This document shows positions 17,887-40,910 of a stretch of DNA of 64,000 nucleotides, in pieces (the first letter of the stretch is position 1; every line of letters starts with the position of its first letter). Location of the stretch: assembly GCA_044375195.1 (NCBI GenBank), contig JBILNB010000015.1, positions 7,619 through 71,618 of the forward strand, written 5' to 3'. Both the position numbers and the translations under genes were made by a program. The notes under the pieces are model-generated. The model was not told where the DNA came from, ran no database searches, and saw nothing but the letters and a program-made list of their open reading frames with translations. Source of the DNA: Rubrivivax sp. (GTDB lineage: Bacteria; Pseudomonadota; Gammaproteobacteria; Burkholderiales; Burkholderiaceae_C).

Positions 17887-17926
17887 CGGTCATGTCGTCG
17901 GCGGCGGGTCGCCGCCACGCAGTGAA

Positions 17927-17941
17927 GCAACCGCTGTGCCA
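17927..17941 (-). promoter_or_regulatory. Sigma54 promoter of the flhA operon
   Basis: TGGCAC-AGCGG-TTGC on the minus strand, 40 nt upstream of the flhA ATG. Confidence 0.85.
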
Positions 17942-21073: not shown

Positions 21074-21155
21074 GGCGTGCGCTTGCTGATGCGCGCCCCC
21101 GCAGGGGGATGGGTCAACCCGGGAGCGGCCCTTCGTTGACTCGAGAGTGACGCAG

Positions 21156-21740
21156 ATGGCTGAGGAAGAAAAGCAGGCAGAAGGCAAACGCAAGCTGCCG
21201 TTGTTGAAGGTGCTCGTGCTGGTGACCGGCGCGCTCGTCCTGCTGGGTCTGGTGGTCATGGCCTCGCTGGTGCTGACCGGCTACTTCGACAAGGTGGACG
21301 AACGCTCGGTCGAGGCGCAGCTCGAGCAGGTCCGCCGCGAGGCTGCGGCGTCGGCGCCTGCGCCCGGCAAGCGCGCCAGTGACGCTGACCGTGGCGCCAA
21401 GGCCAAGAAGGAGCAGCCGCGCTACGAGTACCGGTACCTGGAGTACGAGCGCCCGCTCGTGGCCAACGTCGCCAGCTCGCGCCGGGTAATGCAGGTGCAG
21501 ATCGCCTTCATGACCCGGTTCGACGAGCGCGTGACCAACAACCTGAAGAAGCATGAATTCGCGCTGCGCTCCGCGGCGCTGGATGTCATGCGGCAGGCCA
21601 CCGAGGCCGAACTCGGCAACCCGGACTTCCGCAAGATCCTCGGCGAGCGGCTTCGCACCGAGATCAACGCGGTGCTCGAGAGGCTCGAGGAATTCGGCGG
21701 CGTCGAGGAGGTGTACTTCACCTCCTTCGTCGTGCAGTGA
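21156..21740 (+). CDS. fliL: Basal-body-associated FliL (copy 1)
   Basis: N-terminal TM, LVANVASSRRVMQVQIAF, GVEEVYFTSFVVQ. Confidence 0.9.
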   Translation: MAEEEKQAEGKRKLPLLKVLVLVTGALVLLGLVVMASLVLTGYFDKVDERSVEAQLEQVRREAAASAPAPGKRASDADRGAKAKKEQPRYEYRYLEYERPLVANVASSRRVMQVQIAFMTRFDERVTNNLKKHEFALRSAALDVMRQATEAELGNPDFRKILGERLRTEINAVLERLEEFGGVEEVYFTSFVVQ

Positions 21741-21771: not shown

Positions 21772-22803
21772 GTGAGCATAGATCCGAACCAACCCCTGCT
21801 CTCCCAGGACGAGCTCACCGCCTTGTCGGCGGTCATGGCCGCCTCCTCAGGCGGCACGTCGACCCCGTACAACGTGAACCTGTCCCTGGTCAAGCACGAC
21901 CTGACCTCCGAGGACAGCAGCCTCGGCGTCAACGTCGCCTCGCTCGACATGATCAACGAGCGCTTCATCCGTCTGTTCCGCCTGGGATTGATGGAGTTGT
22001 TGCGCACGAGTCCGAAGCTGAACCCGAGCCGGGTCCAGATCCTGCGCTTCGGCGACTACCTGAAGAACCTGAAGCTGCCGCTGTCGGTCAACACGCTGCG
22101 GATGAACCCTCTGCGCGGCCAGACCATGGTCGTCATCGAACCCGGGCTGATCTTCAGCTCGCTCGACAGCTTCTTCGGCGGTTTCGGGCGCAGCGTGGGG
22201 CACCTCAGCCCGGGGCGCCTGTTCACGCCCACCGAGACGCGCATCATCAACCTGATCCTGCAGGTCTTCTTCCGCAGCATGAAGGAGGCCTGGTCGCCCA
22301 TCGCCGCGGTGGAGTTCGACCCGGTGGGCTCGGAAATCAATCCGCAGTTCGCGCAGATCGCCGACGACAACGATCTCGTCGTGCTCAGCCGCTTCGAGCC
22401 CGAGCCCGCGGGCGAGGCCAGCGGCGCCACCGGTTTCATCGACCTGGTCATCCCCTACATCTCGCTGAAGCCCGTGCGCGATCTGCTGCGCAGCCGGGTG
22501 CAGACCGGCGATGGCAACGACGAATCCGACAAGGTCTGGCGCCAGGAATTGACGGCCGCGGTCGACGAGGCGGCACTCGAATTGCGCGTCAACTTCGGCG
22601 AGATCGACATCTCGTTGCAGCAACTGCGGTCCTTCCAGCCGGGTGACCTGCTGTACTTCAAGAAGCCTGACTGGGCCCGCGCCTACCTGTGCGGCGTTCC
22701 CGCCTTCGAAGTGGAGGTCGGCTCCTCGGGCCAGCAGGTGGCGTGCCGAATCGTGAAATCCATCCGCCCCGAGGCGGATGCCCAGCCTTCGAAAACATCA
22801 TGA
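21772..22803 (+). CDS. fliM: Switch protein FliM
   Basis: LLSQDELTAL, DMINERFIRLFR, SEINPQFAQI, C-terminal SpoA domain; GTG start. Confidence 0.92.
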   Translation: MSIDPNQPLLSQDELTALSAVMAASSGGTSTPYNVNLSLVKHDLTSEDSSLGVNVASLDMINERFIRLFRLGLMELLRTSPKLNPSRVQILRFGDYLKNLKLPLSVNTLRMNPLRGQTMVVIEPGLIFSSLDSFFGGFGRSVGHLSPGRLFTPTETRIINLILQVFFRSMKEAWSPIAAVEFDPVGSEINPQFAQIADDNDLVVLSRFEPEPAGEASGATGFIDLVIPYISLKPVRDLLRSRVQTGDGNDESDKVWRQELTAAVDEAALELRVNFGEIDISLQQLRSFQPGDLLYFKKPDWARAYLCGVPAFEVEVGSSGQQVACRIVKSIRPEADAQPSKTS

Positions 22804-23105
22804 ACCAGACGATGGATGAAGCCCAGACGCCGGCGGCGGAGACCGCGGCGATACGTCCCGAGGTGCTGCAGAACATCTCGGTGACGATGTCGATCGAAGT
22901 CGGCCGGGCGTCGATCAGGATCAAGGACCTGCTGCGTCTGACGCAGGGCAGCGTGGTCGAACTCGACCGCATCGCCGGCGAGCCGCTGGACCTGCTGATC
23001 AACAACACCGTCGTCGCGCAAGGCGAGGTCGTGCTGGTCAACGAGCGCTACGGCATCCGCCTGACGCGGGTGGTCGCCCCTTCGGAGCGGCTGGGCCAGC
23101 CCTGA
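22800..23105 (+). CDS. fliN: Switch protein FliN
   Basis: ISVTMSIEVGR, GSVVELDRIAGEPLD, GEVVLVNERYGIRLT. Confidence 0.95.
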   Translation: MNQTMDEAQTPAAETAAIRPEVLQNISVTMSIEVGRASIRIKDLLRLTQGSVVELDRIAGEPLDLLINNTVVAQGEVVLVNERYGIRLTRVVAPSERLGQP

Positions 23106-23131
23106 AGAGGGCCGGGCGGGCGGCAGCAGGG

Positions 23132-26517: not shown

Positions 26518-26859
26518 ATGAAGATACCCTCCTTCAACCCGGCTGGCGTGCTGCGCCCGGCGAGCATGGACCGCAACCGTAGCGACGCGGGCGCGCGGGC
26601 GGCCGCTCGCCAGGGTGCTGCGCGCGTCGACCCGCCGCCCTTCACGTCGATGCAGGTCAAGCGGCTCGTGCCCGGCCGGCAGAACAAGGGTCTCGTCATC
26701 GACATGGAGGACGTCTCCACCGCCGCCGCCCCCGCGACCGTGTCGCCGTCGGACGAGGCGCTGATACGCGCGAGCAAGACCCGGCTGGCGTCGCGGGTGC
26801 AGCGCTTGCGCGAAACGGTGTCCGGCCTGCGGCTGGACATCGAGGCCCTGCGTCGGTGA
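26518..26859 (+). CDS. Hypothetical protein with C-terminal coiled coil
   Basis: 113-aa ATG ORF 29 nt after flhB, co-oriented. Confidence 0.55.
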   Translation: MKIPSFNPAGVLRPASMDRNRSDAGARAAARQGAARVDPPPFTSMQVKRLVPGRQNKGLVIDMEDVSTAAAPATVSPSDEALIRASKTRLASRVQRLRETVSGLRLDIEALRR

Positions 26860-26934: not shown

Positions 26935-27912
26935 ATGAGCACCGAGTCCCCCACCGACGCCCCCCGACCCCAGCCCGCCCAGGCCGAAGCTGTGGAGCCC
27001 CCTGTCGAAGGTGCAGGGCGGCGGGGCCCGATGCAGGACGTCGAAGATGCGGTGCCGCGTGCTGCCGCGGGCAGCGCCGGATCCGGCGCGCGGTCTGCGT
27101 CGCCCGCGGTGGTCGAGCGCGAGGAATTCGAGGCGCTGAGCAACGCGGTGCTCGAGGCCGCCGACGTCGCCTCGCAGGCGGCGCTCGCCGCCTCGCTCGC
27201 CGGTCGCGAGCTGAAGAACACGGCCGGCTTGCTCTCGGAGGTGACCTTCGGCTTGAACAAGCGTTCGATATGGGCCCTGGGCATCCTGTGCGGGCTGCTC
27301 GTGCTGTCGATCGGATTCTTCAGCGTCATGGCCGTGCGCATGATCAGCAAGACCAACCGCCTCGAAGCCACCTTGCTCGTCGTCGGCAAGCGTGTCGTGG
27401 AGCTCGACGCCGGCCTGACCGGGCTGCGCGCCATCCAGGAGAACCTGGACTCCCTCACCGAGCGCATCGCCACGCTGACCAAGGCGAATGCCGAGCTGGG
27501 TCAGCGTGTGGACAACTCGGTGCAGCAGTCGGCGGCGCTCGTGCAGCAGGTTCCGGAAAAGACCGCCAAGCAGGTTGCCACGACCAGCAGCGACCTGACC
27601 AAGCAGGTCCAGGCCCTGAGCGGACGCATGCAGGCCCAGGCCGGGGCCGTGCAGTCGCAGGCCACGGCGGTGAACGCCCTGGGCGAGGAGCTGAAGGCGC
27701 TGAAGGGCTCGGTGGCGGAGATCGCCGGCGTCAAGCGCGACGTCCAGGCCCTGGTCACGCTGCAGCGCGAAAGGTTCCTGGAAGTGGTGCAGAAGCAGGG
27801 TCAGGTCGTCGCCGACGCCAACGCCTTGCGCTTCCCGCGGCCGCAGCCGGCGCGGCAGGCCGCCGGCGCCGCAGCCCCCGCGGCCGCAGCCAGCGCGGCG
27901 ACCGGCCGTTGA
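26935..27912 (+). CDS. Single-TM protein with long coiled coil
   Basis: AGGAG RBS, TM IWALGILCGLLVLSIGFFSVMAV, then ~170 aa of heptad repeats. Confidence 0.8.
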   Translation: MSTESPTDAPRPQPAQAEAVEPPVEGAGRRGPMQDVEDAVPRAAAGSAGSGARSASPAVVEREEFEALSNAVLEAADVASQAALAASLAGRELKNTAGLLSEVTFGLNKRSIWALGILCGLLVLSIGFFSVMAVRMISKTNRLEATLLVVGKRVVELDAGLTGLRAIQENLDSLTERIATLTKANAELGQRVDNSVQQSAALVQQVPEKTAKQVATTSSDLTKQVQALSGRMQAQAGAVQSQATAVNALGEELKALKGSVAEIAGVKRDVQALVTLQRERFLEVVQKQGQVVADANALRFPRPQPARQAAGAAAPAAAASAATGR

Positions 27913-27962: not shown

Positions 27963-28553
27963 TTACTGCACGACGAAGGAGGTGAAGTACACCTCCTCGA
28001 TCCCGCCGAAATTCTCCAGCCGGTCGAGAACGGCGTTGAACTCGGTGCGCATCTTCTCGGCCATCAGCTTGCGGAACTCGGGCTTCTGGACCTCGGCTTC
28101 CACGCTCTGCCGCATGATGTCGAGCGCGGCCGAGCGCATCGCGGACTCGTGGCGCTTGATGTTGTTCACGACGCGGTCGTCATAGCGTGTCATGACGGCG
28201 ATCTTCACGAGCATGAAGCGCTTGGACCCCGACAGGTTCGCGAGCAGTTCCTTCTCGAACTCGACGTACCGGTACTCGAAGCGTGCCTGTTCGGGCGACG
28301 CCTTGGTCATCAGCTTCGGCGCGGCGCCTGACGCCCCTGGCGCCGCGCCGTCCGCAGCCCCGCTGCCGGACTGCGTGCCCTTGGCCTCAGCGGCCTCTGC
28401 GGCCAGGGACTCCTTGTTCTGGAAGAAGCCCGTGAAGGCCAGGGTGCCGACGATCGATCCCCCCACCAGGACCAGCACGAGCAGCACCGCCACGATCAGC
28501 AGCAGCATCGAGGGCTTCTTGCCCCCTTCGGTTTCCTGGGTCTCATCGGCCAT
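27963..28553 (-). CDS. fliL: Second FliL paralog
   Basis: Colinear with copy 1 (LLANLSGSKRFMLVKIAV; GIEEVYFTSFVVQ); has its own sigma54 promoter. Confidence 0.9.
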   Translation of the reverse strand: MADETQETEGGKKPSMLLLIVAVLLVLVLVGGSIVGTLAFTGFFQNKESLAAEAAEAKGTQSGSGAADGAAPGASGAAPKLMTKASPEQARFEYRYVEFEKELLANLSGSKRFMLVKIAVMTRYDDRVVNNIKRHESAMRSAALDIMRQSVEAEVQKPEFRKLMAEKMRTEFNAVLDRLENFGGIEEVYFTSFVVQ

Positions 28554-28621
28554 GTGCGTTCATCCCAACGTTCGTGCGCCGGCTGGTCCTGTTTCGCGAC
28601 ACGGGCGCCAGGAGCCAGGAG

Positions 28622-28636
28622 GCAATATCCGTACCA
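28622..28636 (-). promoter_or_regulatory. Sigma54 promoter of the second fliL
   Basis: TGGTAC-GGATA-TTGC on the minus strand. Confidence 0.8.
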
Positions 28637-28725: not shown

Positions 28726-28741
28726 CGGCAGGTTCTTGCCT
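28726..28741. promoter_or_regulatory. Variant enhancer palindrome
   Basis: CGGCAG-GTTC-TTGCCT, 90 bp upstream of the fliL2 -24 element. Confidence 0.5.
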
Positions 28742-29654
28742 AGCGTTGCGCGGTCTTGCCGTGCGCGGCTGGCGCTGCAGCAGGCACCGCCGCCGCGGCC
28801 GGCGGGTTGGCTGGGGTGCCAGCAAGCAGGGCGCGCAACTTCGCCACCTGCTCGCGGCTGAGTCCGACGGGACTGCGCAGCCGGTAGAAGCTCACACCAC
28901 CACTGCAAGGCGGCACCGGCAACACGCCGGTGTAGAGGTCGTAGCCCAGGTTCTCCGGCAGCAGCGATGCCGGGTCCACGGAGACCGTGCCGACCTCGGC
29001 GGGCGCCGCCCCGGCGGCCGGAACGTGCTGCGCCATCGTCCACAGCGTGCGGTTCTGGAACGCCGACTCGCGCAGGGGCACGCTGACGGCGATCAACTTG
29101 CCGTCCTGGGTGCGGTGCACGAACTGGGCGACCAGTGCCGCGGCCATGCCGGCGAAGAGGCCCTGGGGTGGCTGGTGCACGTCCACGTTGATCAACTCGG
29201 CTGTCTCGCCGCCGACCTTCAACACCCCCCCGGGGGCCGGGTAGAGCCTGATCGACTGCCCGGTGTGCGCGACGCGCAGCGGGCCCTGGCGGTAGCGCGG
29301 CTCGAGCGCGGCGGGGCGGGTGTCCGCCTTGGCGGGCTGCGCGGTCAGCGGAGTGTCCCTGGCCAGCTGGCAGGCCTGCTGCGTGTCCGTGCCGGCGACC
29401 GCGACCAGGCCACCCCCCGCCTTCTCCAGCGCTCTCAGCCGCGCCTCCCGGTTGCGGGCCGTCGTCTCCAGCGCCTCGACGTCGGTCTCGAGCGCACTGA
29501 TGCGATCGCGCTGGGTGGCGACGATCTCGGCCAGCTTCTCCGCCTCGGACCGGTGATGCGCCGCCTGTCCCCACTTCACCGCGGCCAGAGTGCCCAGGGC
29601 CGCCATCAGGGCCCCGAGCAAGCCGAACAGAATGATGCGCAAAAACAGTTTCAT
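28740..29654 (-). CDS. Membrane-anchored alpha-carbonic anhydrase homolog, predicted catalytically inactive
   Basis: TM, coiled coil, then colinear alpha-CA motifs with substitutions: HTGQSI (NGHTI), NVDVH (QFHFH), VAQFVH (EAHFVH), LLP..LGY..YTGVLPVPPC (GSLTTPPC). Confidence 0.75.
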   Translation of the reverse strand: MKLFLRIILFGLLGALMAALGTLAAVKWGQAAHHRSEAEKLAEIVATQRDRISALETDVEALETTARNREARLRALEKAGGGLVAVAGTDTQQACQLARDTPLTAQPAKADTRPAALEPRYRQGPLRVAHTGQSIRLYPAPGGVLKVGGETAELINVDVHQPPQGLFAGMAAALVAQFVHRTQDGKLIAVSVPLRESAFQNRTLWTMAQHVPAAGAAPAEVGTVSVDPASLLPENLGYDLYTGVLPVPPCSGGVSFYRLRSPVGLSREQVAKLRALLAGTPANPPAAAAVPAAAPAAHGKTAQR

Positions 29655-29737: not shown

Positions 29738-30235
29738 ATGAAACTCCTGCTTGGTGGCGTGGCGCTCGGAATGGCCTTGATGGCGGGCATCGTCGGCATC
29801 GTTTCCGTGGTCACGGGCGACAGCAGTGCGCCCGACATCCCGCAGGACATCGGCGCGGTCAAGCGTGACGGGTCTGTCATTGACCTGATCTGCGAACTGC
29901 AGCTCGATCTGGACGGTCAGGTCGCGCTCGGGATCCAGGCCAACGAGCCGCCGCGCATGGCGATGGCCCAGATCGACCTGGCCAGGAAGTCCGGCTGGTA
30001 TCAGGGACGGCTGGCGATCTCCGAGGGGCGCGGCGGCAATCTGGAGGTGAAGGCGCAGCAGTTCGTCGTCAGCCGGCCTGCGATGTTCCAGCGCTTCGGC
30101 ACCGTCATCACGCGCGAGGCCTTCGTCATCGACCGGGCCACGGGCGCCTTCACGCAGACGCTGGACACCCAGGACGGGCGCACGGTGAAGCTCATCCGCG
30201 GCACGTGCGCGCGGGTGCTGAAACCCCCGTTCTGA
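29738..30235 (+). CDS. Hypothetical exported or membrane-anchored protein
   Basis: Hydrophobic N-terminus and a beta-rich domain with two Cys; divergent from the CA-like gene. Confidence 0.7.
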   Translation: MKLLLGGVALGMALMAGIVGIVSVVTGDSSAPDIPQDIGAVKRDGSVIDLICELQLDLDGQVALGIQANEPPRMAMAQIDLARKSGWYQGRLAISEGRGGNLEVKAQQFVVSRPAMFQRFGTVITREAFVIDRATGAFTQTLDTQDGRTVKLIRGTCARVLKPPF

Positions 30236-30295
30236 ACCTGGCCTCAGCGGTCCGGGCGCTCGGCCTGCCTTGCTGCGGCGCCCCGCGGGTTCACC

Positions 30296-30520
30296 TCAGA
30301 CGAGGCACCACAGGCCCACGCACCAGCCGAACATCCACTCCAGCGCCAGGTCCAGCGTCAGGCCCAGCAGCAGTATGGGCAAGCCGATGCTCCAGACCAG
30401 GAGCCAGGCGCCCGCGGCGGTCATGCGTGGGCCCTCGATGCGATGGCCCATGACGGTCTGCGACGGCGGAATATCCAGGGAAGACTTCTTCGAGGCCTGT
30501 TTCATCATGCGCCCGGTCAT
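30296..30520 (-). CDS. Small membrane protein
   Basis: GHRIEGPRMT followed by hydrophobic segments, ending WCVGLWCLV; start may be at the internal MGHRIEG. Confidence 0.55.
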   Translation of the reverse strand: MTGRMMKQASKKSSLDIPPSQTVMGHRIEGPRMTAAGAWLLVWSIGLPILLLGLTLDLALEWMFGWCVGLWCLV

Positions 30521-30536
30521 CGGCTCGGAAGATTCT

Positions 30537-31475
30537 ATGCAGGGATGGAGCGTTCGCTGGGACCTGGCCGACAGCGGCGACTGGGACCGTCTGCATCACC
30601 AGGCCGCGGGCAGTCTGCAGCAGTCGTGGCGCTACGGGCAGGCCATGCAGGCGCTGGGCATCCCCTGCCTGCGCGCGCTGGTGCGCGACGGCGACCGGAT
30701 CGTCGGCGCAGCGCAGTTCCTGCAGCAGCGCCTTCCCTGGTTCGTCCGTTCTGCCTTGTGCAGCCGCGGGCCGCTGTGGCACCCGGAGCTCTCGGTGGCG
30801 CAGCAGGCAGTCGCAGTCGAGATGATCCGCAAGACTTTGCCGGTGCGGCGCCCGCGCGTGGCCATCTTCACGCCCGAGCTCGAGCAGCACGAGGCCCTGC
30901 GCGCAGGCAACCCCTGCGCCGGGCTGCGTCGGGTGATGACGGGATACTCGACCGTGCTCGTCGACCTGCGCCGCAACGCCACCGACCTGCGGCGCCGGCT
31001 CGACGGCAACTGGCGCAACCGGCTGGTGGCGGTCGAGCGCTCCGCCGTCGAGGTCTGCGACGAGAGCGCCGACGCGCCGGCGCACGAGGCCATGGTGGCC
31101 GCAGAGTGGGAGCAGCGACGCAGCCGGGGCTACTTTTCGCTGCCGCGGGCGTTCGTCGCCGCGTGGCGGGTCGTGCCGCCTGCCGAGGGTGCCACCCTGC
31201 TGCTGTCGGCGCGGCTGGCCGGCGAGCGAGCGGCCGCGGTCCTGTTTCTCGTCCACGGGCGCACGGCGACCTACCACCTGGGCTGGACCGGGCCGGCGGG
31301 CCGGCAGTCCCACGCCCACAACCTCCTGATGTGGCGGGCCTTCGTCGCGCTGCAGGACCGCGGCGTGGAGGTGCTGGATCTCGGCGGTGTGGACACGGTT
31401 CGGGAGCCCGGCATCGCGCGGTTCAAGATCGGCACCGGCGGGCGCGTCTGCACGCTCGTGGGCAGCTACGCCTGA
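30537..31475 (+). CDS. FemAB-like GNAT acyl/aminoacyl transferase
   Basis: LQQSWRYG, RGPLW, TVLVDL...WRNRL, ATYHLGW, HNLLMW, LDLGG, GIARFKIGTGG. Confidence 0.8.
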   Translation: MQGWSVRWDLADSGDWDRLHHQAAGSLQQSWRYGQAMQALGIPCLRALVRDGDRIVGAAQFLQQRLPWFVRSALCSRGPLWHPELSVAQQAVAVEMIRKTLPVRRPRVAIFTPELEQHEALRAGNPCAGLRRVMTGYSTVLVDLRRNATDLRRRLDGNWRNRLVAVERSAVEVCDESADAPAHEAMVAAEWEQRRSRGYFSLPRAFVAAWRVVPPAEGATLLLSARLAGERAAAVLFLVHGRTATYHLGWTGPAGRQSHAHNLLMWRAFVALQDRGVEVLDLGGVDTVREPGIARFKIGTGGRVCTLVGSYA

Positions 31476-31540: not shown

Positions 31541-32005
31541 TCAGCCCGGCGGGCCGTCGTAGTCGGCGCAGACCATGCCGAACAGCAGCGCGAACGGGGT
31601 GCCCGGCACGATCTTGCGCCAGTAACCCATCTCCTGCACGTCGAAGACCTGTGCGCCGCTGAGCAGCGGCCCGGCATGGCTGCTGATCCGGCCGATGCGG
31701 AACATCTGGTGCCGGCACTCGTATTCGGCCGTGTAGCGGCGCGAAAGCACGCCGTCGCTGTCCTTTTCCTTGAGGCTCTGCATCTCGATGACGCGGCGGA
31801 TCTGCCCGTCGCGCTGAAGCGAGCCGGCCTGCACGTAGACGGTGGCGAGCGCCGTCTCGCCCATGCGGCGCCATCCCGGCGGCGACTCCGGGGCTGCGGG
31901 CACCGCGCTGGCGGACGTCTGCCGCGAAGCCGCTCCGAAGGCGGCTGCGCAGAGGGCCAGACAGATGGCGATTCGAGTAGTGTTTTTGATTGTTGGATGG
32001 TGCAT
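31541..32005 (-). CDS. Surface-adhesin E family exported protein
   Basis: Signal peptide, GW...VYV...SLQRDG, EYEC, WRKIVPGT...VC. Confidence 0.6.
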   Translation of the reverse strand: MHHPTIKNTTRIAICLALCAAAFGAASRQTSASAVPAAPESPPGWRRMGETALATVYVQAGSLQRDGQIRRVIEMQSLKEKDSDGVLSRRYTAEYECRHQMFRIGRISSHAGPLLSGAQVFDVQEMGYWRKIVPGTPFALLFGMVCADYDGPPG

Positions 32006-32106
32006 GACGATAGAATCAATTCGCAAAGTTTATTCGTTTGACGCGCGGTGCTCAGCCGGTGACCCGCCGGCCGGTCCGCTGCGGTCATCGATACAGAGGG
32101 TGGGCG

Positions 32107-32970
32107 ATGTTCTTCTTCATTGGACTGATCGTGGTGTTCGTCGCGGTGCTCGGCGGGTACGTCGCTGCCGGTGGCAAGCTCGGCCCCATCATCAAGGCGG
32201 CTCCGTTCGAGTTCGTCATCATTGCCGGGGCGGCCATCGGCGCGTCCCTCGTGGGCAACAGCTTCCCGGTGTTCAAGGCGGCGATGGCCGGCATCGGCCG
32301 CTGCATCTCGGGCCCCAAGTGGAAGCCCCAGGATTACCTGAACCTGATCACGCTCGTGGGCAAGCTGCTGGCCGTGATGAAGCGCGAGGGGGTCGTGGCG
32401 CTGGAGGCGCACGTCGAGAACCCGGACTCGAGCCCGATCTTCGGGGAGTTCCCCAAGCTCGCCAAGGACCATTCGGTCGTGCAGATGATCTGCGACCCGC
32501 TGCGGCTGGCGGTGATCTCCCAGGGCAACCTCGACCCGGAGTCGGTGGAGGAGATCATGGGTACCGCCATCAAGGTGCATCACCACGAGGCGATGCGCGC
32601 GCCTGCGGCGCTGACGACGATCGCCGGGTCGCTGCCGGCCCTGGGCATCGTGGCCTGCGTGCTGGGTGTCGTCAAGACCATGGGCGCCATCGACCAGCCG
32701 CCAGCGGTGCTCGGCGCCCTCATCGGCGCGGCGCTCGTGGGCACGATGCTCGGGGTGTTCCTGTCCTATGCCATGTTCGAGCCCTTCGCCAACCGCCTGG
32801 GGCAGATCGTCGAGGAGGAGGCCCAGGTCTACAAGGTCATCCAGCAGATGATCGTGGCCAATCTGCGCGGGCATCCGCAGCCCATCGTCATCGAGGCGGC
32901 GCGGGCGTGCATCGATCACGCCAACCAGCCGTCCTTCTCCGAGGTCTTCGACACCTTGCGTGGCGCATGA
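32107..32970 (+). CDS. motA: Stator protein MotA
   Basis: Four-TM pattern, KREGVVALEAHVENP (Arg90/Glu98 equivalents), LPALGIVACVLGVV. Confidence 0.95.
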   Translation: MFFFIGLIVVFVAVLGGYVAAGGKLGPIIKAAPFEFVIIAGAAIGASLVGNSFPVFKAAMAGIGRCISGPKWKPQDYLNLITLVGKLLAVMKREGVVALEAHVENPDSSPIFGEFPKLAKDHSVVQMICDPLRLAVISQGNLDPESVEEIMGTAIKVHHHEAMRAPAALTTIAGSLPALGIVACVLGVVKTMGAIDQPPAVLGALIGAALVGTMLGVFLSYAMFEPFANRLGQIVEEEAQVYKVIQQMIVANLRGHPQPIVIEAARACIDHANQPSFSEVFDTLRGA

Positions 32971-32999
32971 CGCAGGGCTTGCAGCGGGTGAGCTGAACG

Positions 33000-33989
33000 A
33001 TGGCTGCTGCCCAGGAGCCGGCTGAGAAGCCCCAGGAGCAGGCCGCGCCGGCCGCCGCGCCTGCTCCTGCGCCCGCCCCGGCGCCAGACGATGGAGGGTC
33101 CGACAAGCGGCCGATCATCGTCAAGAAGATCATCGACGAGGGCCACGGCGGCCACCACGGCGGCGCCTGGAAGATCGCGCTGGCCGACATGATGACGGCG
33201 ATGATGGCCTTTTTCCTGCTGATGTGGCTGCTTGGCGCCACCACCGAGGACAGGCGCAAGAGCGTGGCCGACTACTTCCGCCCGGCTTCTCACAGCCAGA
33301 TCAAGTTCGGCGAGATGGCCGGGTCGGACGGCCTGCTCGGGGGCTCGTCGGTGGTGGATGTCGACGGGTTCCCGTTCACGGCCAGGCAGAGCTCGCTGCT
33401 GGAGCGGCTCACGCCGAAGGCGCAGGGCGGCGCGAACGCGACCGAGGGCGGGGCGGCAGACCAGCGCAGCCGCGACGGCACCAGCGATTCGGAGCCGAAG
33501 CCGCAAGCTTCCGCGGCCGACCAGGAGAACTTCGAGAAGCTCGAGGCCCAGTTGCGCGAGGACCTGTCGAAGAACCCGCAGCTGCAGGCGGTCAAGGACA
33601 CGGTCAGCATCGTGCGCGAGAGCGACGGCCTGCGCATCGAGATCATCGACAAGGCCGACTTCTCGATGTTCCGCCTTGGCACGGCCGACCTGGACCCGCG
33701 CGCTGCAGCGCTGCTGGGCGAGGTTGCGCGCTCGCTGCAGGCGCTGCCCAACCGGTTGGCGGTGCGCGGCCATACCGACAGTCTCGGCTTCGCCGACGCC
33801 AGCGGGCGCAGCAACTGGTCCTTGTCCACCGAGCGCGCCGACGCGACGCGCCAGTTGATGGTCGGCGCGGGCGTGAACGCGCAGCGCTTCTCCCGCATCG
33901 AGGGCGTGGCCGACACGCAGCCGTTCGTGCCGCGCAACCCGGCCGATCCGCGCAACCGGCGCGTGAGCATCACCGTGCTCAATCAGTGA
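33000..33989 (+). CDS. motB: Stator protein MotB
   Basis: HGGAWKIALADMMTAMMAFFLLMWL with the conserved Asp; OmpA-like domain GHTDS...NWSLSTERA...NRRVSI. Confidence 0.95.
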   Translation: MAAAQEPAEKPQEQAAPAAAPAPAPAPAPDDGGSDKRPIIVKKIIDEGHGGHHGGAWKIALADMMTAMMAFFLLMWLLGATTEDRRKSVADYFRPASHSQIKFGEMAGSDGLLGGSSVVDVDGFPFTARQSSLLERLTPKAQGGANATEGGAADQRSRDGTSDSEPKPQASAADQENFEKLEAQLREDLSKNPQLQAVKDTVSIVRESDGLRIEIIDKADFSMFRLGTADLDPRAAALLGEVARSLQALPNRLAVRGHTDSLGFADASGRSNWSLSTERADATRQLMVGAGVNAQRFSRIEGVADTQPFVPRNPADPRNRRVSITVLNQ

Positions 33990-33999
33990 CGGGATGCGC

Positions 34000-35178
34000 C
34001 TAGCGCTTCAGCCCGTACTTGGCCAGCTTCTCGATCAGTGTGGTGCGCTGCAGACCCAGCAGCCGCGCCGCCTGGGAGACGTTGCCCCTGGAGCGGTCCA
34101 TCGCCTGCTCGATGAAGCTGCGCTCGATCGAGTTGATGCGGTCGCGCAAGGAGATTCCCTGCTCGCCCAGCAGGTCCAGGCCGAGCGCCATCCGGATCGC
34201 GTCCTCGGCGGGATTGGTGGCGGCCTCGTCGCCTGCCGGGGCAGGGGCCTGGGCGCCGTCGAGTGTCGCCTCGGCCTCGGCTTCCTGTGCCGTGTCTTTC
34301 CAGGCCGTCTCATGCAGGAGGTGCTCGGCGCCGGGCGCGTCCGACAGCAGCGCCTCGCGCGGCGGCCCGGACGTCTGCGCCCCGCTGCCGGCCCGGGCGC
34401 GGGCCAGTGCCGCCGGCAGCATCCACACCGGGATGGACTCCAGGCTCAGGACCTGGGACGGGTACAGGGCCGAGAAGCGATCCACGAGATTGGACAGTTC
34501 GCGCACGTTGCCGGGCCAGTCGTAGGCGCGCAGCGCCTCCAGCATGCAGGCGTCGAAGGTCACGGGCTCGAAGCCGGGCGCACTGTGATGACGGGCGTAG
34601 AAGGACAGCATCTCCGGCACGTCCTCCGGACGCTCGCGCAAGGGCGCGGTGCGCATCGGGATGACATTGAGCCGATAGAACAGGTCCTCGCGGAACCGAC
34701 CCTGCTGGACGTCCCGCTCCAGGTCGCGGTTGGTGGCGGCGACGATGCGCACGTCGATGGGCACGCTTTCAATCGAGCCCAGCGGCTCGATGCGGCGCTC
34801 CTGCAGCACGCGCAGCAGCTTCACCTGCGTGTCCACGGGCAGGTCGCCGACCTCGTCGAGGAAGAGCGTGCCGCCGTTGGCCATCTCGAAGCGTCCGGTT
34901 CGGTGGGCCAGCGCGCCGGTGAAGGCTCCGCGCCGGTAGCCGAAGAGCTCGCTCTCGATCAGGTCCTTGGGAATGGCGCCGCAGTTGATCGGGATGAAGG
35001 GACCGTCCTGCCGAGGCCCGCTTGCATGCAGTGCCTGGGCCACCAGTTCCTTGCCGGTGCCGCTCTCACCGGTGATCAGCACCGTGGCGCGGGACGCCGC
35101 AACGGTCTGGATGAGTTCGCGCAGCACCCGCATGGGCTCGCTGCGGCCGATCAAGGGCGGTGTGGGGGCTCCTCTCAT
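34000..35178 (-). CDS. fleQ: FleQ/FlrA-like sigma54 activator lacking an N-terminal regulatory domain
   Basis: Starts immediately at the AAA+ domain (LIGRS, GESGTGKE, GAFTGA); FleQ-like HTH AARLLGLQRTTLIEKL. Confidence 0.75.
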   Translation of the reverse strand: MRGAPTPPLIGRSEPMRVLRELIQTVAASRATVLITGESGTGKELVAQALHASGPRQDGPFIPINCGAIPKDLIESELFGYRRGAFTGALAHRTGRFEMANGGTLFLDEVGDLPVDTQVKLLRVLQERRIEPLGSIESVPIDVRIVAATNRDLERDVQQGRFREDLFYRLNVIPMRTAPLRERPEDVPEMLSFYARHHSAPGFEPVTFDACMLEALRAYDWPGNVRELSNLVDRFSALYPSQVLSLESIPVWMLPAALARARAGSGAQTSGPPREALLSDAPGAEHLLHETAWKDTAQEAEAEATLDGAQAPAPAGDEAATNPAEDAIRMALGLDLLGEQGISLRDRINSIERSFIEQAMDRSRGNVSQAARLLGLQRTTLIEKLAKYGLKR

Positions 35179-35387: not shown

Positions 35388-35417
35388 TGCGCGTGCGCGT
35401 GCGTGTGCGCGTGCGCG
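35388..35417. repeat. 30-nt perfectly alternating pyrimidine/purine tract
   Basis: TGCGCGTGCGCGTGCGTGTGCGCGTGCGCG. Confidence 0.8.
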
Positions 35418-35458
35418 GGCGCCGTCCCGCCGGGTGGTCTGGGCCCGGGGGTCGGGTC

Positions 35459-36823
35459 ATGAGCCGCGCCCACTGGCCCGAGGAGACGCTGGACACCGAC
35501 GTCGGCTCGCCGCGGCTGTATGACGCGGGCGCCGTCGAGGACTGGGTGGACATCCTGGTCGCGCGTCGCAGCAGTCTGCTGCTGTGCGGTGACGACTCGG
35601 CCCTGGACCGGCAGGCGCAGCTGCTGCTCCAGGGGCTGCGCAAGGCCGGCGGCGTGGAGACCGCGCTCATCTTCGACATGGACCGCTCGCTGCTGCTCGA
35701 GCGCTTCAACCGCCTGCTGTCCGACATGACGGTGGACCAGGCGCGTGCGGCGGCCCCGGGCGTTGCTCGCGTCTGGGTGTTCCAGGTCCAGGCCGATGCC
35801 GAGCTCGACCAGGCCCGCCTGCTGCTGCGCCTGAGCCAGGACCTGCCCGGCGCCGGCGTGGTCGTGCTGCTGCTCGCCTCCGTGCGGCTGGCACGTGAAC
35901 TGGCGCCCGAGGGCAGTGGCCGGCGCCTGCAGGTGCGCGTGATCGGCGACCCCTGGGCCCGATCCGGCGGCCCCGAGGAGCCGGGCGCCGCGCGCCAGGA
36001 GCCGCCGATGGTGCCACCGTCGGCTGCGTCGGCTTCGGCGTCGGCTTCGGCGTCGGCGACCACGCCGGCGCCCAAGCGCGGCACGAAGCTGCGCACCACG
36101 GTCCTGGCCGGGGTCGCGCTGCTACTGGCGAGTGCAGGTGCGGTCATCTTCCTGCGCCCGGCCGAACTGCGTCTTGCCCTGGGGCCTGTTGCCAAGCCCG
36201 CCGCGGCAGCGTCTGCAGTGGCGCCCGAGGCCTCTGCGCCTGCGTCTGCGGTCGCACAGGCGCTTCCTGCCCCGGCCACGGCATCGGCATCGGCTGCCCA
36301 GGCCGTCGCGGTGGCACCAGCCGCGGCCGCATCCGCCCCTGCCCTCAAGCCGGCGCCAGCGCCCGGGCCGGTTGCAGCGGTCCCGCCCGGCCAGCCGCAG
36401 CCGGCCGCCGCCGGCACGACCGTGCCTGCAGCGGCCGGCAAGAGCTTGCCGCCGACCGGCGACGCCTTGGCCTCGGCGCGCGAGCAGGTGGCACGCAGCG
36501 CCAGCTGGATCGACGCCCAGCCCGAGTCGAGCTGGCTGGTGCAGCATGCGGTGAGCGGGCGCGCGAGCGACTTGCTCGACCTGCGCCTGAGCCAGCCTGC
36601 GCTGGCCGACGCCCGCATCATTGCCACCTTCCGCAGTGACGGGCGCGTGTACTTCGCGCTGGTGTCGGGGCCCTTCGATTCCGCCGCCGACGCGCGCAGC
36701 TTCGAGCAAGGTCTGCCGAAGCTTGCCACGCCCAGCTTCGTGCGCAGCATCTCGCGCGTGAAGAGGGAGCTCGTGGAACCGACGAGCCCGAACGTCCCGG
36801 GCCTGCCGCCGGTCGCGCGTTGA
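35459..36823 (+). CDS. Membrane protein with Ala/Pro linker and C-terminal SPOR-like (DamX-type) domain
   Basis: Cytoplasmic N-domain, one TM, PA-rich linker, WLVQ...YFALVSGPFDSAADARSFEQGLP...FVRSI. Confidence 0.7.
   Translation: MSRAHWPEETLDTDVGSPRLYDAGAVEDWVDILVARRSSLLLCGDDSALDRQAQLLLQGLRKAGGVETALIFDMDRSLLLERFNRLLSDMTVDQARAAAPGVARVWVFQVQADAELDQARLLLRLSQDLPGAGVVVLLLASVRLARELAPEGSGRRLQVRVIGDPWARSGGPEEPGAARQEPPMVPPSAASASASASASATTPAPKRGTKLRTTVLAGVALLLASAGAVIFLRPAELRLALGPVAKPAAAASAVAPEASAPASAVAQALPAPATASASAAQAVAVAPAAAASAPALKPAPAPGPVAAVPPGQPQPAAAGTTVPAAAGKSLPPTGDALASAREQVARSASWIDAQPESSWLVQHAVSGRASDLLDLRLSQPALADARIIATFRSDGRVYFALVSGPFDSAADARSFEQGLPKLATPSFVRSISRVKRELVEPTSPNVPGLPPVAR
36436..36451. 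promoter_or_regulatory. Palindrome CGGCAA-N4-TTGCCG (intragenic)
   Basis: CGGCAAGAGCTTGCCG, ~375 bp upstream of the candidate flgP promoter. Confidence 0.45.
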
Positions 36824-36840: not shown

Positions 36841-36912
36841 ATGCGGACGCCGAATCCTTGACGGCGGGGCGTCTTGCGCCGCCGTTGTTCGCATCGTCAG
36901 GAGGGAGTGCCG

Positions 36913-37488
36913 ATGTTCAATCGAAGCCGCACGTGGGCGCTGTGCCTGGCAGCCCTGGGTCTGTCGGCCTGTCAGCACGTGGCGCTGCCGCCCATGGGCG
37001 AGAACGCCGCGGAGCCTGCCCGGCCCGTTCGCGACATGAACGCCAAGGAACTCAAGGCGGAAATGTCCGCCGGCGTCCGGGCGCCGAGCCCGCCGGTGTC
37101 GATGATCGAGCCCTTGATCGAGAAGCGCGACACGCTGGTGGCCACGGGCTACGCGGTCGTCAGCGTGCAGAAGCACAGCAACCCGGCCCAGCAGCGCCTG
37201 CTGGCGATCCGGGCCTCCAAGCTCGACGCCTACCGGTCGCTGACCGAGCAGGTCTACGGTCAGTATCTGGACGCGACGACCACCGTGGCCGACATGACCG
37301 TGATGAGCGACACCTTCCGCGCCAAGGTCGAAGGGGTGATCTACGGCGCCGTGCTGGTGAGCATCTCGCCGGTGGGCGACGACACCTACGAGACCTCGCT
37401 GTCGCTGGACAGCGCGGTCGTCAACGACCTGCGGCTGCTGTACCTGGGTCAGCTCGCCTCGAAGCAGCGCGCCCGGCGCGCCCAGTGA
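36913..37488 (+). CDS. flgP: Flagellar lipoprotein FlgP (LPP20 family)
   Basis: Lipobox LSAC; ATGYA, QRLLAIRASKLDAYRSLTEQVYG, RAKVEGVIYGA. Confidence 0.85.
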   Translation: MFNRSRTWALCLAALGLSACQHVALPPMGENAAEPARPVRDMNAKELKAEMSAGVRAPSPPVSMIEPLIEKRDTLVATGYAVVSVQKHSNPAQQRLLAIRASKLDAYRSLTEQVYGQYLDATTTVADMTVMSDTFRAKVEGVIYGAVLVSISPVGDDTYETSLSLDSAVVNDLRLLYLGQLASKQRARRAQ

Positions 37489-37522
37489 CCCGGCCGTGGC
37501 GGGGGGCGCCTTGACCAGGAGC

Positions 37523-38890: not shown

Positions 38891-38900
38891 AGCCCGCACC

Positions 38901-39500
38901 ATGCCCGGAGATGTGCCCATGCAAGCATTCGAGCGCTTCCTGACGGCGGCCCGCCCCCTGTTCGCGCCGATGGCGCGCGCAGGCTCTGCGGGAGCCTGTC
39001 TGTGGCCTGTCGTCCTGGTGGCCGCGGCGCTGGGCGCTGGTCGCGCGCATGCGGCCACGGCCGTCGAGGGGCTGTCCGAGCAGGGTCAGGCGGCGCTGCA
39101 GCACCTGCTGCACCCGCAGGCCGGCGGCGGCGCCGCGCGGGCCGACGGCGCAGCCCATGCCGAGGCCGCCGGGACCCGCGCGCGGGTCGTGCTGCAGCGT
39201 GGCGAGACCCTGGACCGCGTGATCGCCCGCACCCTGCGCGACAGCCCCTTCCGCGTCGAAGTGCTGCGCGAGGCCTACATGCGCCTGAACCGCAGTGCCT
39301 TTCCCCGCGGCACCCCGCAATCGCTCGTGGCCGGCTCGACCCTGGTCGTGCCGACCCCGGCCGACGTGCTCGGTATCGTCGACCCGCAGCGCCAGTGGTC
39401 TGCGCCCCCTGCCCCCGCCCACGCGCCGGCTGCCATGCCGGCACGGGCTGCCACGCCGGCGCTCGACACGGATCGCCGCAACTGGATCCGCTACCCCTAG
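38901..39500 (+). CDS. Exported protein with FimV-type LysM domain
   Basis: Signal ending AHA; RGETLDRVIA...AYMRLNRSAFPRGTPQSLVAGSTLVVP; start at 38901 or 38919. Confidence 0.7.
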   Translation: MPGDVPMQAFERFLTAARPLFAPMARAGSAGACLWPVVLVAAALGAGRAHAATAVEGLSEQGQAALQHLLHPQAGGGAARADGAAHAEAAGTRARVVLQRGETLDRVIARTLRDSPFRVEVLREAYMRLNRSAFPRGTPQSLVAGSTLVVPTPADVLGIVDPQRQWSAPPAPAHAPAAMPARAATPALDTDRRNWIRYP

Positions 39501-39519
39501 CCGGGCGGGGAGCCCGCCC

Positions 39520-40728: not shown

Positions 40729-40833
40729 ATGGCCGGGAGTCTGTCGCCCATGTCCGCCTTGCACGCCAAGACAGCGCGTCCCGTCCTTGCAAACCCTTGC
40801 CGGGGCCCGAGCCGTGGCTGCGGTTTGCGCCCG

Positions 40834-40848: not shown

Positions 40849-40910
40849 GGCGCGCCGAGCGGGCGCGGCGCAAGCCTTCCCGGCCTGTGACGGCCGCACG
40901 AGTGCGCACC

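What the first reader, a model, noticed from the sequence alone, without database searches (positions are those of the whole stretch)
28740..29654. Zinc-less alpha-carbonic anhydrase pseudoenzyme tethered to the membrane inside the flagellar locus
Seen: TM anchor, coiled-coil stalk and an alpha-CA domain in which two of three Zn-His ligands (QFHFH to NVDVH; EAHFVH to VAQFVH), the proton-shuttle His (GHTI to GQSI) and the gatekeeper Thr (SLTTPPC to VLPVPPC) are replaced, while both structural Cys remain. It lies directly upstream of fliL2. Established: such substitutions inactivate alpha-CAs, as in eukaryotic CA-related proteins that act as binding modules. Inference: a bacterial CA-fold pseudoenzyme recruited as a periplasmic motor or stator accessory. 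I know of no described equivalent.
Basis: partly seen in the sequence, partly recalled or inferred. Interest (0 to 1): 0.75.

Follow-up and report, generated by a model that had tools for sequence, protein, structure and literature searches.

The report
Dead carbonic anhydrase beside flagellar stator genes
A lake bacterium encodes a membrane-anchored protein with a carbonic-anhydrase fold and a degraded catalytic centre, kept under selection and always found next to the flagellar stator genes, so it is probably an enzyme fold reused as a periplasmic motor or envelope part, though that role is untested.

Summary
Window 28740-29654 (-) encodes a 304-aa protein. It has an N-terminal membrane helix, a heptad-repeat helical stalk, an alpha-carbonic-anhydrase (alpha-CA) domain and a Pro/Ala-rich tail.

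The CA homology is significant: Pfam is above its cutoff, PDB E = 9e-18, and the AlphaFold model matches bacterial alpha-CAs at TM about 0.7.

- In 33 distinct relatives, E106 is never Glu and T199 is always Pro.
- The three zinc-ligand positions drift (D-H-Q, D-Y-H, H-V-H, L-M-L, and a few H-H-H).
- The N- and C-terminal CA segments are missing.
- Both cysteines and the fold are retained.

The gene is not decaying. dN/dS is 0.16, similar to flhB and fliL2. A new invariant motif, VP(L/M)RESAFQxRxxW, has appeared. Lake metatranscriptome assemblies contain the gene.

In all 24 loci recovered (freshwater Burkholderiales MAGs and metagenome contigs), wherever the contig extends far enough, the gene pairs divergently with a conserved 165-aa unknown. 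It also lies beside an Adhesin_E protein, a FemAB-like GNAT and motAB.

The fliL2 adjacency holds only in one subgroup, and fliL2 has its own sigma-54 promoter.

The pseudoenzyme reading is strongly supported. A motor or stator role is plausible but rests on gene linkage alone.

The parts
28740..29654 (-). CA-like gene: 304 aa with a membrane anchor, helical stalk, degenerate alpha-CA domain and Pro/Ala tail.
   Evidence: ORF and GC3 0.90. Pfam PF00194. PDB phmmer E 9e-18. AlphaFold mean pLDDT 89. Foldseek top hits are bacterial alpha-CAs.
29574..29642 (-). N-terminal transmembrane anchor, aa 5-27. Residues A18, T22, V26 and K27 are conserved across the family.
   Evidence: Kyte-Doolittle mean is 1.85-3.0 in all 33 family members. 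It is part of helix 2-80 in the model.
29415..29573 (-). Heptad-repeat helical stalk, aa 28-80 (probable coiled coil).
   Evidence: The a/d register is hydrophobic over aa 38-76. The model shows a continuous helix at pLDDT about 90. There are weak coiled-coil Pfam hits.
28809..29399 (-). Degenerate alpha-CA domain, aa 86-282. D158, H160 and Q177 replace the His3 triad. Q164 replaces E106, P246 replaces T199 and Q133 replaces H64. Cys95 and Cys250 are kept.
   Evidence: Domain pLDDT is mostly above 90. TM is about 0.7 to 5hpj, 6eki and 1kop.
29040..29078 (-). Family-specific invariant motif P-L-R-E-S-A-F-Q-N-R-T-L-W, aa 193-205. It spans a strand end, a loop and a short helix. This is the candidate new interaction surface.
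   Evidence: It is invariant or nearly so in 33 members. Entropy over aa 190-205 is 0.47 bits in the family against 1.76 in canonical alpha-CAs.
28743..28808 (-). Pro/Ala-rich low-complexity C-terminal tail, aa 283-304.
   Evidence: pLDDT is about 50. Length and sequence vary among relatives.
28621..28636 (-). Sigma-54-type promoter TGGTACGGATATTGCC, about 70 bp upstream of fliL2, inside the gap between the CA-like gene and fliL2.
   Evidence: The same pattern lies at the same place in L001, L002 and L009. Similar sites precede flhA and flgB in the window.
27963..28553 (-). fliL2, a second FliL paralogue, 49% identical to fliL1 at 21147-21740.
   Evidence: PF03748. NCBIfam FliL models hit well below their curated cutoffs.
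29738..30235 (+). hyp165, a conserved unknown transcribed divergently from the CA-like gene. It has an N-terminal hydrophobic helix and an 8-strand beta domain.
   Evidence: It is adjacent in every locus whose upstream flank was recovered. It has 156 homologue clusters, all unnamed. The model has pLDDT 78 and no PDB match at E < 1e-3.
30270..31475 (+). FemAB-like GNAT acyltransferase. The true start is probably later, because homologues are 308-320 aa.
   Evidence: PF13480 and PF02388. It is conserved in all loci.
31541..32026 (-). Adhesin_E-domain protein with a predicted signal peptide.
   Evidence: PF16747 E 1.3e-15. It is conserved in all loci. The same domain is fused to active-looking alpha-CAs elsewhere.
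32038..33989 (+). motA and motB stator genes.
   Evidence: PF20560 and PF01618 for MotA; PF13677 and PF00691 for MotB.
26935..27912 (+). ccTM325, a membrane-anchored coiled-coil protein between flhB and fliL2. It is conserved in related flagellar clusters.
   Evidence: Only weak coiled-coil-type hits. Homologues sit after flhB in L025, L026 and L032.

Best explanation
The gene encodes a bitopic inner-membrane protein.
- A conserved N-terminal transmembrane helix holds it in the membrane.
- A helical stalk of about 50 residues, probably a coiled coil, projects into the periplasm.
- The stalk carries a disulfide-containing alpha-carbonic-anhydrase fold that no longer hydrates CO2.

Selection no longer acts on the old zinc pocket. 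It now acts on the fold and on a new surface motif, VP(L/M)RESAFQxRxxW.

The most likely role is as a non-enzymatic structural or adaptor module of the stator-proximal periplasmic apparatus of a polar flagellum that uses sigma-54, FlhF and FlhG. It would act together with its constant divergent neighbour hyp165, and possibly with the Adhesin_E protein, FliL2 or the MotB periplasmic domain.

Shown here: the fold, the loss of catalytic residues, purifying selection, transcription in nature and invariant linkage to motAB.

Inferred: periplasmic topology, the disulfide, oligomerisation through the stalk, and any physical contact with motor parts.
For: Fold:
- Pfam, PDB and AlphaFold/Foldseek results agree on an alpha-CA domain.

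Loss of catalysis:
- In 33 distinct members, E106 is G, S or Q and T199 is always P.
- H64, H94, H96, E117, H119 and T200 all vary. Some triads, such as L-M-L and L-V-L, cannot bind metal at all.
- Active-site entropy is 1.23 bits against 0.47 in 83 canonical alpha-CAs, although the domain as a whole is less variable in the family (1.19 against 1.65 bits).

Not a pseudogene:
- dN/dS is 0.156 (0.16 in the CA domain), against 0.147 for flhB and 0.122 for fliL2.
- There are exactly two Cys in every member.
- The new motif over aa 190-205 has entropy 0.47 bits against 1.76 in canonical alpha-CAs.
- Contigs from four lake metatranscriptomes cover the gene at depths similar to fliL2 and motAB.

Linkage:
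- All 24 loci place it divergent to hyp165 and beside Adhesin_E, GNAT and motAB, wherever the contig extends far enough.
- This holds across at least three different gene orders, including loci where the module is isolated from other flagellar genes.
- Where the CA-like gene is absent, hyp165 lies directly after motB.

Setting and precedent:
- The window is a polar flagellar cluster with an FlgP-like LPP20 protein, which points to a motor with extra periplasmic parts.
- C. jejuni PflC is an HtrA-derived protein with an atrophied catalytic triad that forms a motor disk (PMC12222027).
Against: - No direct evidence places the protein in the motor.
- All carriers belong to one group of freshwater Burkholderiales, so part of the synteny may be inherited rather than selected.
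- No sigma-54 or sigma-28 promoter was found upstream of the CA-like gene.
- fliL2 has its own promoter, so operon coupling to a known motor gene is not shown.
- Many relatives with the same flagellar cluster lack the gene, so it is dispensable for that motor type.
- Active CA-Adhesin_E fusions sit in non-flagellar contexts. The tie between CA and Adhesin_E may therefore be an envelope function unrelated to rotation.
- A few members keep His-His-His (L003, L004, P0008), so some metal binding cannot be excluded.
Confidence: 0.45

Rival explanations
1. It is a general cell-envelope protein. It would work with the Adhesin_E-domain protein and the FemAB-like GNAT, for example in a peptidoglycan or outer-membrane task. 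It would lie near motAB only by shared descent within one lineage, and it would have no role in rotation.
For: - Adhesin_E domains are fused to active-looking alpha-CAs in loci with no flagellar genes. That link between CA and Adhesin_E is therefore independent of flagella.
- All carriers are related freshwater Burkholderiales.
- No flagellar promoter was found for the gene.
- The same flagellar cluster exists without it.
Against: - Adjacency to motAB survives at least three rearrangements, including loci where the module is detached from all other flagellar genes.
- Adhesin_E, GNAT and hyp165 are themselves fixed members of the flagellar cluster in CA-less relatives.
Confidence: 0.25
2. It is a transient assembly or regulatory factor for the flagellum rather than a permanent structural part. 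For example, it could be a periplasmic chaperone or gate for stator incorporation, or a sensor domain that binds a small ligand and modulates stator engagement.
For: - The linkage evidence is the same as for the main explanation.
- The membrane anchor and conserved transmembrane residues would suit signalling or docking in the membrane.
- Its patchy presence among related motors suits a modulator.
Against: - The old ligand pocket is the least conserved part of the domain, which argues against a conserved small-molecule site there.
- There is no cytoplasmic domain to transmit a signal: only about 4 residues precede the transmembrane helix.
Confidence: 0.15
3. It is still an enzyme or metal site. 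It would be a membrane-tethered CA with an unusual Asp-His-Gln metal centre that handles CO2, bicarbonate or protons close to the proton-driven stator.
For: - Asp and Gln can bind zinc. hCAII H94D and T199P variants have solved structures and appear among the fold matches (1cvc and 1lg5).
- Otherwise canonical soluble alpha-CAs carry natural D-H-Q or H-H-Q triads with E106 and T199 intact (P0010, P0013, P0021, P0026 and others).
- A few family members keep H-H-H.
Against: - E106 and T199 are absent in every member.
- Triads such as L-M-L, L-V-L and H-V-H occur in orthologues with the same architecture and context.
- H64, Y7 and the N-terminal active-site wall are gone.
- Selection on the pocket is relaxed.
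Confidence: 0.07
4. It is a decaying remnant of a periplasmic alpha-CA gene with no function.
For: - Many catalytic residues are lost and the ends of the domain are trimmed.
- It diverges fast relative to MotA: 35-39% identity against 81-87% between subgroups.
Against: - The reading frame is intact in all 33 distinct variants.
- dN/dS is 0.16.
- The Cys pair is invariant and a newly invariant 13-residue motif has appeared.
- The AlphaFold model is confident.
- The gene is present in metatranscriptome assemblies.
Confidence: 0.03

Closest known systems
Bacterial periplasmic alpha-carbonic anhydrases (Photobacterium profundum 5hpj, Persephonella 6im0, Neisseria gonorrhoeae 1kop)
   Same: - Homologous domain: E 9e-18, 23-31% identity, TM about 0.7.
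- Same conserved Cys pair, the LLP and PPC motifs, and H122.
- Periplasmic setting.
   Different: - Membrane anchor and helical stalk in place of a cleaved signal peptide.
- No E106, T199 or H64.
- Drifting zinc ligands.
- N- and C-terminal CA segments deleted.
- A new invariant RESAFQ..W motif.
Eukaryotic and viral acatalytic alpha-CA-fold proteins (CARP VIII/X/XI; the CA-like domains of RPTP gamma/zeta and of vaccinia D8, cited from established knowledge and not retrieved here)
   Same: An alpha-CA fold kept as a binding module after loss of zinc ligands. CARP VIII (2w2j) is among the fold matches.
   Different: - Independent origin: the nearest sequence relatives are bacterial alpha-CAs, not CARPs.
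- The loss here is deeper, with E106 and T199 also gone.
- The setting is bacterial and periplasmic, and the gene is linked to the stator genes.
PflC of Campylobacter jejuni (HtrA-derived medial-disk protein)
   Same: A periplasmic enzyme fold with an atrophied catalytic centre, co-opted as a lineage-specific flagellar motor scaffold (PMC12222027).
   Different: - Different fold and phylum.
- PflC is located in the motor by in situ cryo-EM, whereas here only gene linkage exists.
- PflC is soluble, whereas this protein is membrane-anchored.
FliL and its paralogues (e.g. MotF of Sinorhizobium meliloti); the MotX/MotY T-ring of Vibrio (cited from established knowledge, not retrieved here)
   Same: - Single-pass or periplasmic accessory proteins encoded next to stator genes.
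- A second FliL paralogue sits directly downstream here. The MotF paper was seen only as a title and abstract start in a search listing (PMC9541039).
   Different: There is no sequence or fold relationship. A role in stator activation or anchoring is only hypothesised for the CA-like protein.
Membrane-anchored, apparently active alpha-CA P0142
   Same: An N-terminal transmembrane helix, a helical linker and an alpha-CA domain with V at position 117.
   Different: P0142 keeps HWGY, H64, the His3 triad, E106, T199 and the C-terminal strand, and it lacks the RESAFQ motif. It illustrates a plausible ancestral state and is not a member of the family.

Membership tests
alpha-carbonic anhydrase (PF00194, EC 4.2.1.1) | Homologous alpha-CA fold | tested here: met
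   Pfam 30.7 bits against a cutoff of 27. PDB E 8.9e-18. AlphaFold domain pLDDT above 90 and Foldseek TM about 0.7 to 5hpj, 6eki and 1kop.
alpha-carbonic anhydrase (PF00194, EC 4.2.1.1) | Zinc triad His94-His96-His119 | tested here: not met
   The window has D158-H160-Q177. Across 33 relatives the three positions read D/H/L/Q, H/Y/F/V/M and Q/H/L/N.
alpha-carbonic anhydrase (PF00194, EC 4.2.1.1) | Glu106-Thr199 network that orients the zinc-bound hydroxide | tested here: not met
   E106 is G, S or Q, and T199 is Pro in all 33 members. Both are invariant in 83 canonical sequences.
alpha-carbonic anhydrase (PF00194, EC 4.2.1.1) | Proton-shuttle His64 and the N-terminal active-site wall (Tyr7 region) | tested here: not met
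   H64 is Q, S, A, E or T. The HWGY...SQSPI segment is absent.
alpha-carbonic anhydrase (PF00194, EC 4.2.1.1) | CO2 hydration activity and bound zinc | not testable with these tools
   This needs purified protein, ICP-MS and a stopped-flow assay.
Acatalytic CA-related proteins (functional class) | alpha-CA fold retained under selection after loss of catalytic residues | tested here: met
   dN/dS 0.16. The constraint pattern is inverted: pocket entropy 1.23 against 0.47 bits, and new motif over aa 190-205 0.47 against 1.76 bits.
Acatalytic CA-related proteins (metazoan CARP VIII/X/XI clade) | Orthology to metazoan CARPs | tested here: not met
   The best sequence and structure matches are bacterial alpha-CAs. 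CARP VIII ranks only 43rd among the fold matches.
Flagellar stator or periplasmic scaffold accessory proteins | Encoded within a flagellar cluster or next to stator genes across genomes | tested here: met
   All 24 loci place it beside motAB wherever the contig extends far enough, in three different gene orders.
Flagellar stator or periplasmic scaffold accessory proteins | Periplasmic or inner-membrane location | tested here: inconclusive
   This is predicted only, from the transmembrane helix, a conserved Cys pair homologous to the disulfide of secreted alpha-CAs, and periplasmic homologues.
Flagellar stator or periplasmic scaffold accessory proteins | Member of the flagellar regulon (sigma-54 or sigma-28 promoter) | tested here: inconclusive
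   No consensus site lies in the 83-bp region upstream of the gene. A sigma-54 site precedes the downstream fliL2. The gene is transcribed in lake metatranscriptomes.
Flagellar stator or periplasmic scaffold accessory proteins | Physical presence in the motor, or a motility phenotype | not testable with these tools
   This needs cryo-ET, pull-downs or genetics. No cultured carrier was found among the GTDB species representatives.

The most novel reading that the evidence does not exclude
Freshwater Burkholderiales have added a previously unseen periplasmic component to their polar flagellar motor. It is built from a catalytically dead, membrane-tethered alpha-carbonic anhydrase. The protein would oligomerise through its stalk and dock, through the RESAFQ..W surface, onto hyp165, the Adhesin_E protein, FliL2 or MotB around the stators. 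That would be a second, independent case, after PflC, of a periplasmic enzyme turned into motor scaffold. As far as these searches found, it would also be the first described bacterial alpha-CA-fold pseudoenzyme.
Probability: 0.35. Interest if true: 0.75.

Novelty: new variant of a known kind. Interest (0 to 1): 0.55.

Why it matters
- Acatalytic alpha-CA-fold proteins are known from animals and poxviruses. My literature searches found no bacterial example.
- This family gives a clean natural case of constraint moving from a catalytic pocket to a new surface.
- If the protein is a motor part, it adds a data point on how flagellar motors gain lineage-specific periplasmic parts by co-opting resident enzymes, as shown for PflC.
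- It also flags a set of unannotated genes in abundant lake bacteria as candidate stator-associated proteins: hyp165, ccTM325, the Adhesin_E protein and the GNAT.
- The family is small, confined to uncultured organisms and dispensable for the motor type, which limits its general reach.

Tried and rejected
- **Promoter search upstream of the CA-like gene.** No sigma-70, sigma-54 or sigma-28 consensus was found, and alignment of upstream regions across loci gave only a short AAACTCC-like motif of unclear meaning. A GCCGATGA box in L003, L004 and L011 lies too close to the start codon to be taken as a sigma-28 -10 element.
- **hyp165 structure.** The model is moderately confident overall (mean pLDDT 78) and high in the beta domain, but there is no PDB match at E < 1e-3, so the fold gives no functional clue.
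- **NCBIfam.** No model hits the CA-like protein, hyp165, the Adhesin_E protein or the GNAT.
- **Rosetta-stone test.** CA-Adhesin_E fusions exist, but they have intact catalytic residues and lie in non-flagellar loci. They support a link between CA and Adhesin_E, not a flagellar one.
- **Neutral decay.** Rejected by dN/dS and conservation.
- **P0142.** It first looked like a family member with an intact site. On alignment it is a canonical anchored alpha-CA without the family motif.
- **Mapping conserved residues in 3D.** The position of the motif is therefore given only from the secondary-structure string.
- **Literature.** Searches for a CA-like flagellar protein or a bacterial acatalytic alpha-CA found nothing relevant.
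Full report
**1. The observation**

The ORF at 28740-29654 on the minus strand encodes 304 aa. Its third-position GC is 0.90, like its neighbours.

- It passes the Pfam alpha-CA model, 30.7 bits against a cutoff of 27.
- It matches solved bacterial alpha-CAs by sequence: 5hpj E 8.9e-18, then 6eki, 6im0 and 1kop.
Both cysteines are retained.
- An AlphaFold2 model built on a 98-sequence alignment has mean pLDDT 89. It shows one long helix over aa 2-80, a beta-rich domain at pLDDT mostly above 90, and a disordered tail after aa 282.
- Foldseek against the PDB returns bacterial alpha-CAs first, with TM about 0.65-0.71 normalised to the target over about 180 aligned columns.
- Residues 7-25 are strongly hydrophobic, and a/d heptad positions are hydrophobic from about aa 38 to 76.

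**2. Source organism and locus**

A Rubrivivax sp. MAG carries a 99% identical copy (L002). The sequence occurs in many lake-water metagenomes.

The window is one large polar-type flagellar cluster. In order it contains:
- fliG, fliF, fliE, a sigma-54 activator, fliS, fliA, flhG, flhF and flhA;
- fliK, fliL1, fliM, a gap at about 22800-23130 that was not scanned and would fit fliN by position, fliO, fliP, fliQ, fliR and flhB;
- an unknown 113-aa ORF, a coiled-coil membrane protein (ccTM325), fliL2 and the CA-like gene;
- hyp165, a FemAB-like GNAT, an Adhesin_E-domain protein, motA and motB;
- a second sigma-54 activator, an FlgP-like LPP20 protein, flgN, flgM, flgA and flgB to flgL (flgJ was not scanned).

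**3. Is it a dead enzyme?**

The family is small. The 90%-clustered database gave about 11 clusters. A full HMMER pass over 1.84 billion representatives gave five matches spanning the full query length; one of these (P0142) turned out to be a canonical anchored alpha-CA, and the other high scorers are multi-domain or canonical CAs.

With genome and metagenome loci added, I assembled 33 distinct sequences.
- In all of them T199 is Pro and E106 is Gly, Ser or Gln.
- The three ligand positions read D/H/L/Q, H/Y/F/V/M and Q/H/L/N.
- The resulting triads include D-H-Q, D-Y-H, D-F-H, H-V-H, H-Y-H, H-Y-N, Q-H-H, L-M-L and L-V-L. Only a few are H-H-H.
- The family also lacks the N-terminal HWGY...SQSPI segment and the C-terminal NxRPxQPLNxR strand of canonical alpha-CAs.

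I quantified the shift in constraint.

| Region | Family (33 sequences) | Canonical alpha-CAs (83 sequences) |
|---|---|---|
| 22 active-site positions | 1.23 bits | 0.47 bits |
| Whole domain | 1.19 bits | 1.65 bits |
| Segment aa 190-205 | 0.47 bits | 1.76 bits |

Constraint has left the pocket and moved to a loop-helix carrying the invariant motif VP(L/M)RESAFQxRxxW.

It is established that single H94D, H119Q or T199P changes in hCAII weaken but do not always abolish zinc binding or activity. Such variants are in the PDB (1cvc and 1lg5). The case for inactivity therefore rests on three things together: the combined loss of E106 and T199, the free drift of the ligands among orthologues, and the missing active-site wall. 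It does not rest on the two ligand changes in this one protein.

**4. Is it decaying?**

No.
- Against the 94%-identical orthologue in L001, dN/dS is 0.156 for the whole gene, 0.15 for the anchor and stalk, and 0.16 for the CA domain.
- For comparison, flhB is 0.147, fliL2 0.122, hyp165 0.133 and motA 0.050.
- Every member has exactly two Cys and a hydrophobic N-terminal helix with conserved A18, T22, V26 and K27. That conservation suits a true membrane anchor better than a cleaved signal peptide.
- Contigs assembled from four lake metatranscriptomes cover the gene at depths similar to fliL2 and motAB. One contig (X27, 28406-28749) bridges the 5' part of fliL2 and the 3' end of the CA-like gene. 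Carry-over of DNA in such libraries cannot be excluded.

**5. Context across genomes**

In all 24 loci recovered, wherever the contig extends far enough, the CA-like gene is divergent from hyp165 and next to the Adhesin_E gene, the GNAT and motAB. Three gene orders occur.
- **Window-like subgroup** (58-100% identity): flhB, ccTM325, fliL2, CA-like, then hyp165, GNAT, Adhesin_E and motAB.
- **Second subgroup** (35-39% identity, Lake Mendota and other lakes): hyp165, then CA-like, Adhesin_E, GNAT and motAB. There is no fliL2, and housekeeping genes lie on the outer flank.
- **L007**: fliI lies upstream.

The fliL2 adjacency is therefore specific to one subgroup. In addition, the 186-bp gap before fliL2 holds a good sigma-54 promoter (TGGTACGGATATTGCC). 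It is conserved in L001, L002 and L009 and resembles the sites before flhA and flgB.

hyp165 is far more widespread, with 156 clusters. In relatives without the CA-like gene it sits directly after motB in the same flagellar cluster (L025, L026, L032). The CA-like gene is thus a lineage-specific addition to a broader, unannotated motAB-proximal module, and it is dispensable for that motor type.

**6. Leads from relatives**

- Many betaproteobacterial proteins fuse Adhesin_E domains to an alpha-CA with an intact catalytic site. Those genes are not in flagellar loci. This suggests that alpha-CAs and Adhesin_E domains can work together physically. It makes the neighbouring Adhesin_E protein a candidate partner, but it is not evidence for a motor role.
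- P0142 is an anchored alpha-CA with a helical linker and all catalytic features. It is a plausible picture of the ancestor.
- The hyp165 model is a transmembrane or signal helix plus an eight-strand beta domain, with no significant PDB match.

**7. Mechanism**

The best-supported reading is a membrane-anchored periplasmic module on a stalk. It keeps the CA fold as a rigid scaffold and presents a new conserved surface. It would act with hyp165 and perhaps with the Adhesin_E protein, FliL2 or MotB in the stator-proximal periplasm.

A helical stalk of about 50 residues would be roughly 7-8 nm long. That would place the domain near the peptidoglycan and the MotB-domain level. This is inference only.

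The co-option of HtrA into PflC of the C. jejuni motor, with atrophy of its catalytic triad, is a direct precedent for this kind of evolution (PMC12222027).

The rivals are an envelope function unrelated to rotation, a transient assembly or regulatory role, a residual metal or enzyme function, and a pseudogene. They are weighed in their own sections. Only the pseudogene is excluded by the data.

**8. Novelty and verdict**

Searches of the paper library found no bacterial acatalytic alpha-CA and no CA-like flagellar protein. Acatalytic alpha-CA folds and pseudoenzyme co-option into motors are both known kinds of thing, so I rate this a new variant of a known kind.

The motor role is a reasonable hypothesis at about 35-45%, and it needs localisation, interaction or genetic data.

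Noticed in passing
P0010, P0013, P0021 (D-H-Q); P0026, P0027, P0034, P0040, P0049 (H-H-Q); not in the window: Otherwise canonical, signal-peptide-bearing alpha-CAs from cable bacteria (Candidatus Electronema and Electrothrix) and other Desulfobulbaceae carry Asp or Gln at zinc-ligand positions 94 and/or 119. They keep E106, T199 and the rest of the site. This looks like a natural variant metal centre and may be worth testing for activity.
   Followed up: no
P0075, P0092, P0093, P0104, P0109, P0110, P0112, P0116, P0117, P0119; loci L029-L031: Proteins of about 440-540 aa fuse Adhesin_E (PF16747) domains to a catalytically intact alpha-CA. They lie in housekeeping contexts, not flagellar ones.
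   Followed up: partly
window 29738-30235 (+); L025 8001-8498, L032 7001-7492: hyp165 is a widespread unnamed family (156 clusters). It sits directly downstream of motB in CA-less relatives and divergent to the CA-like gene otherwise. It has a transmembrane or signal helix plus an 8-strand beta domain with no PDB match. It is a candidate unannotated stator-associated protein.
   Followed up: partly
window 28621-28636 (-), 17926-17941 (-), 44335-44350 (+): Sigma-54-type promoters (TGGCAC-N5-TTGC) precede fliL2, flhA and flgB. Two sigma-54 activators (9383-10879 -, 34000-35178 -), fliA, flhF and flhG are in the cluster. This is a polar, sigma-54-tiered flagellar regulon.
   Followed up: partly
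window 36874-37488 (+) and 35393-36823 (+): An LPP20/FlgP-like protein and an unknown 476-aa protein lie beside the second sigma-54 activator. Homologues of the 476-aa protein follow flhB in related loci. Together they suggest a motor with extra periplasmic or outer-membrane rings.
   Followed up: no
window 26935-27912 (+) and 26518-26859 (+): ccTM325 is a membrane-anchored coiled-coil protein conserved after flhB in related clusters (41% identity in L025 and L026). A 113-aa ORF with no family match lies beside it. Both are unannotated residents of the flagellar cluster.
   Followed up: no
window 46116-48926 (+), 53107-55839 (+), 18104-21073 (+): The hook protein FlgE (936 aa), the hook-associated protein FlgK (910 aa) and the FliK ORF (up to 989 aa) are unusually long.
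   Followed up: no
window about 37500-41200: This stretch has very high GC (0.73-0.77) and many overlapping ORFs. I did not annotate it. Related loci hold an unknown of about 360-420 aa, one of about 190 aa, a second Flg_hook-domain protein and a short FlhB-C-like protein at this place.
   Followed up: no
P0142 (not in the window): A 292-aa alpha-CA with an N-terminal transmembrane helix, a helical linker and a fully canonical active site. It is a possible model for the ancestor of the dead family.
   Followed up: partly
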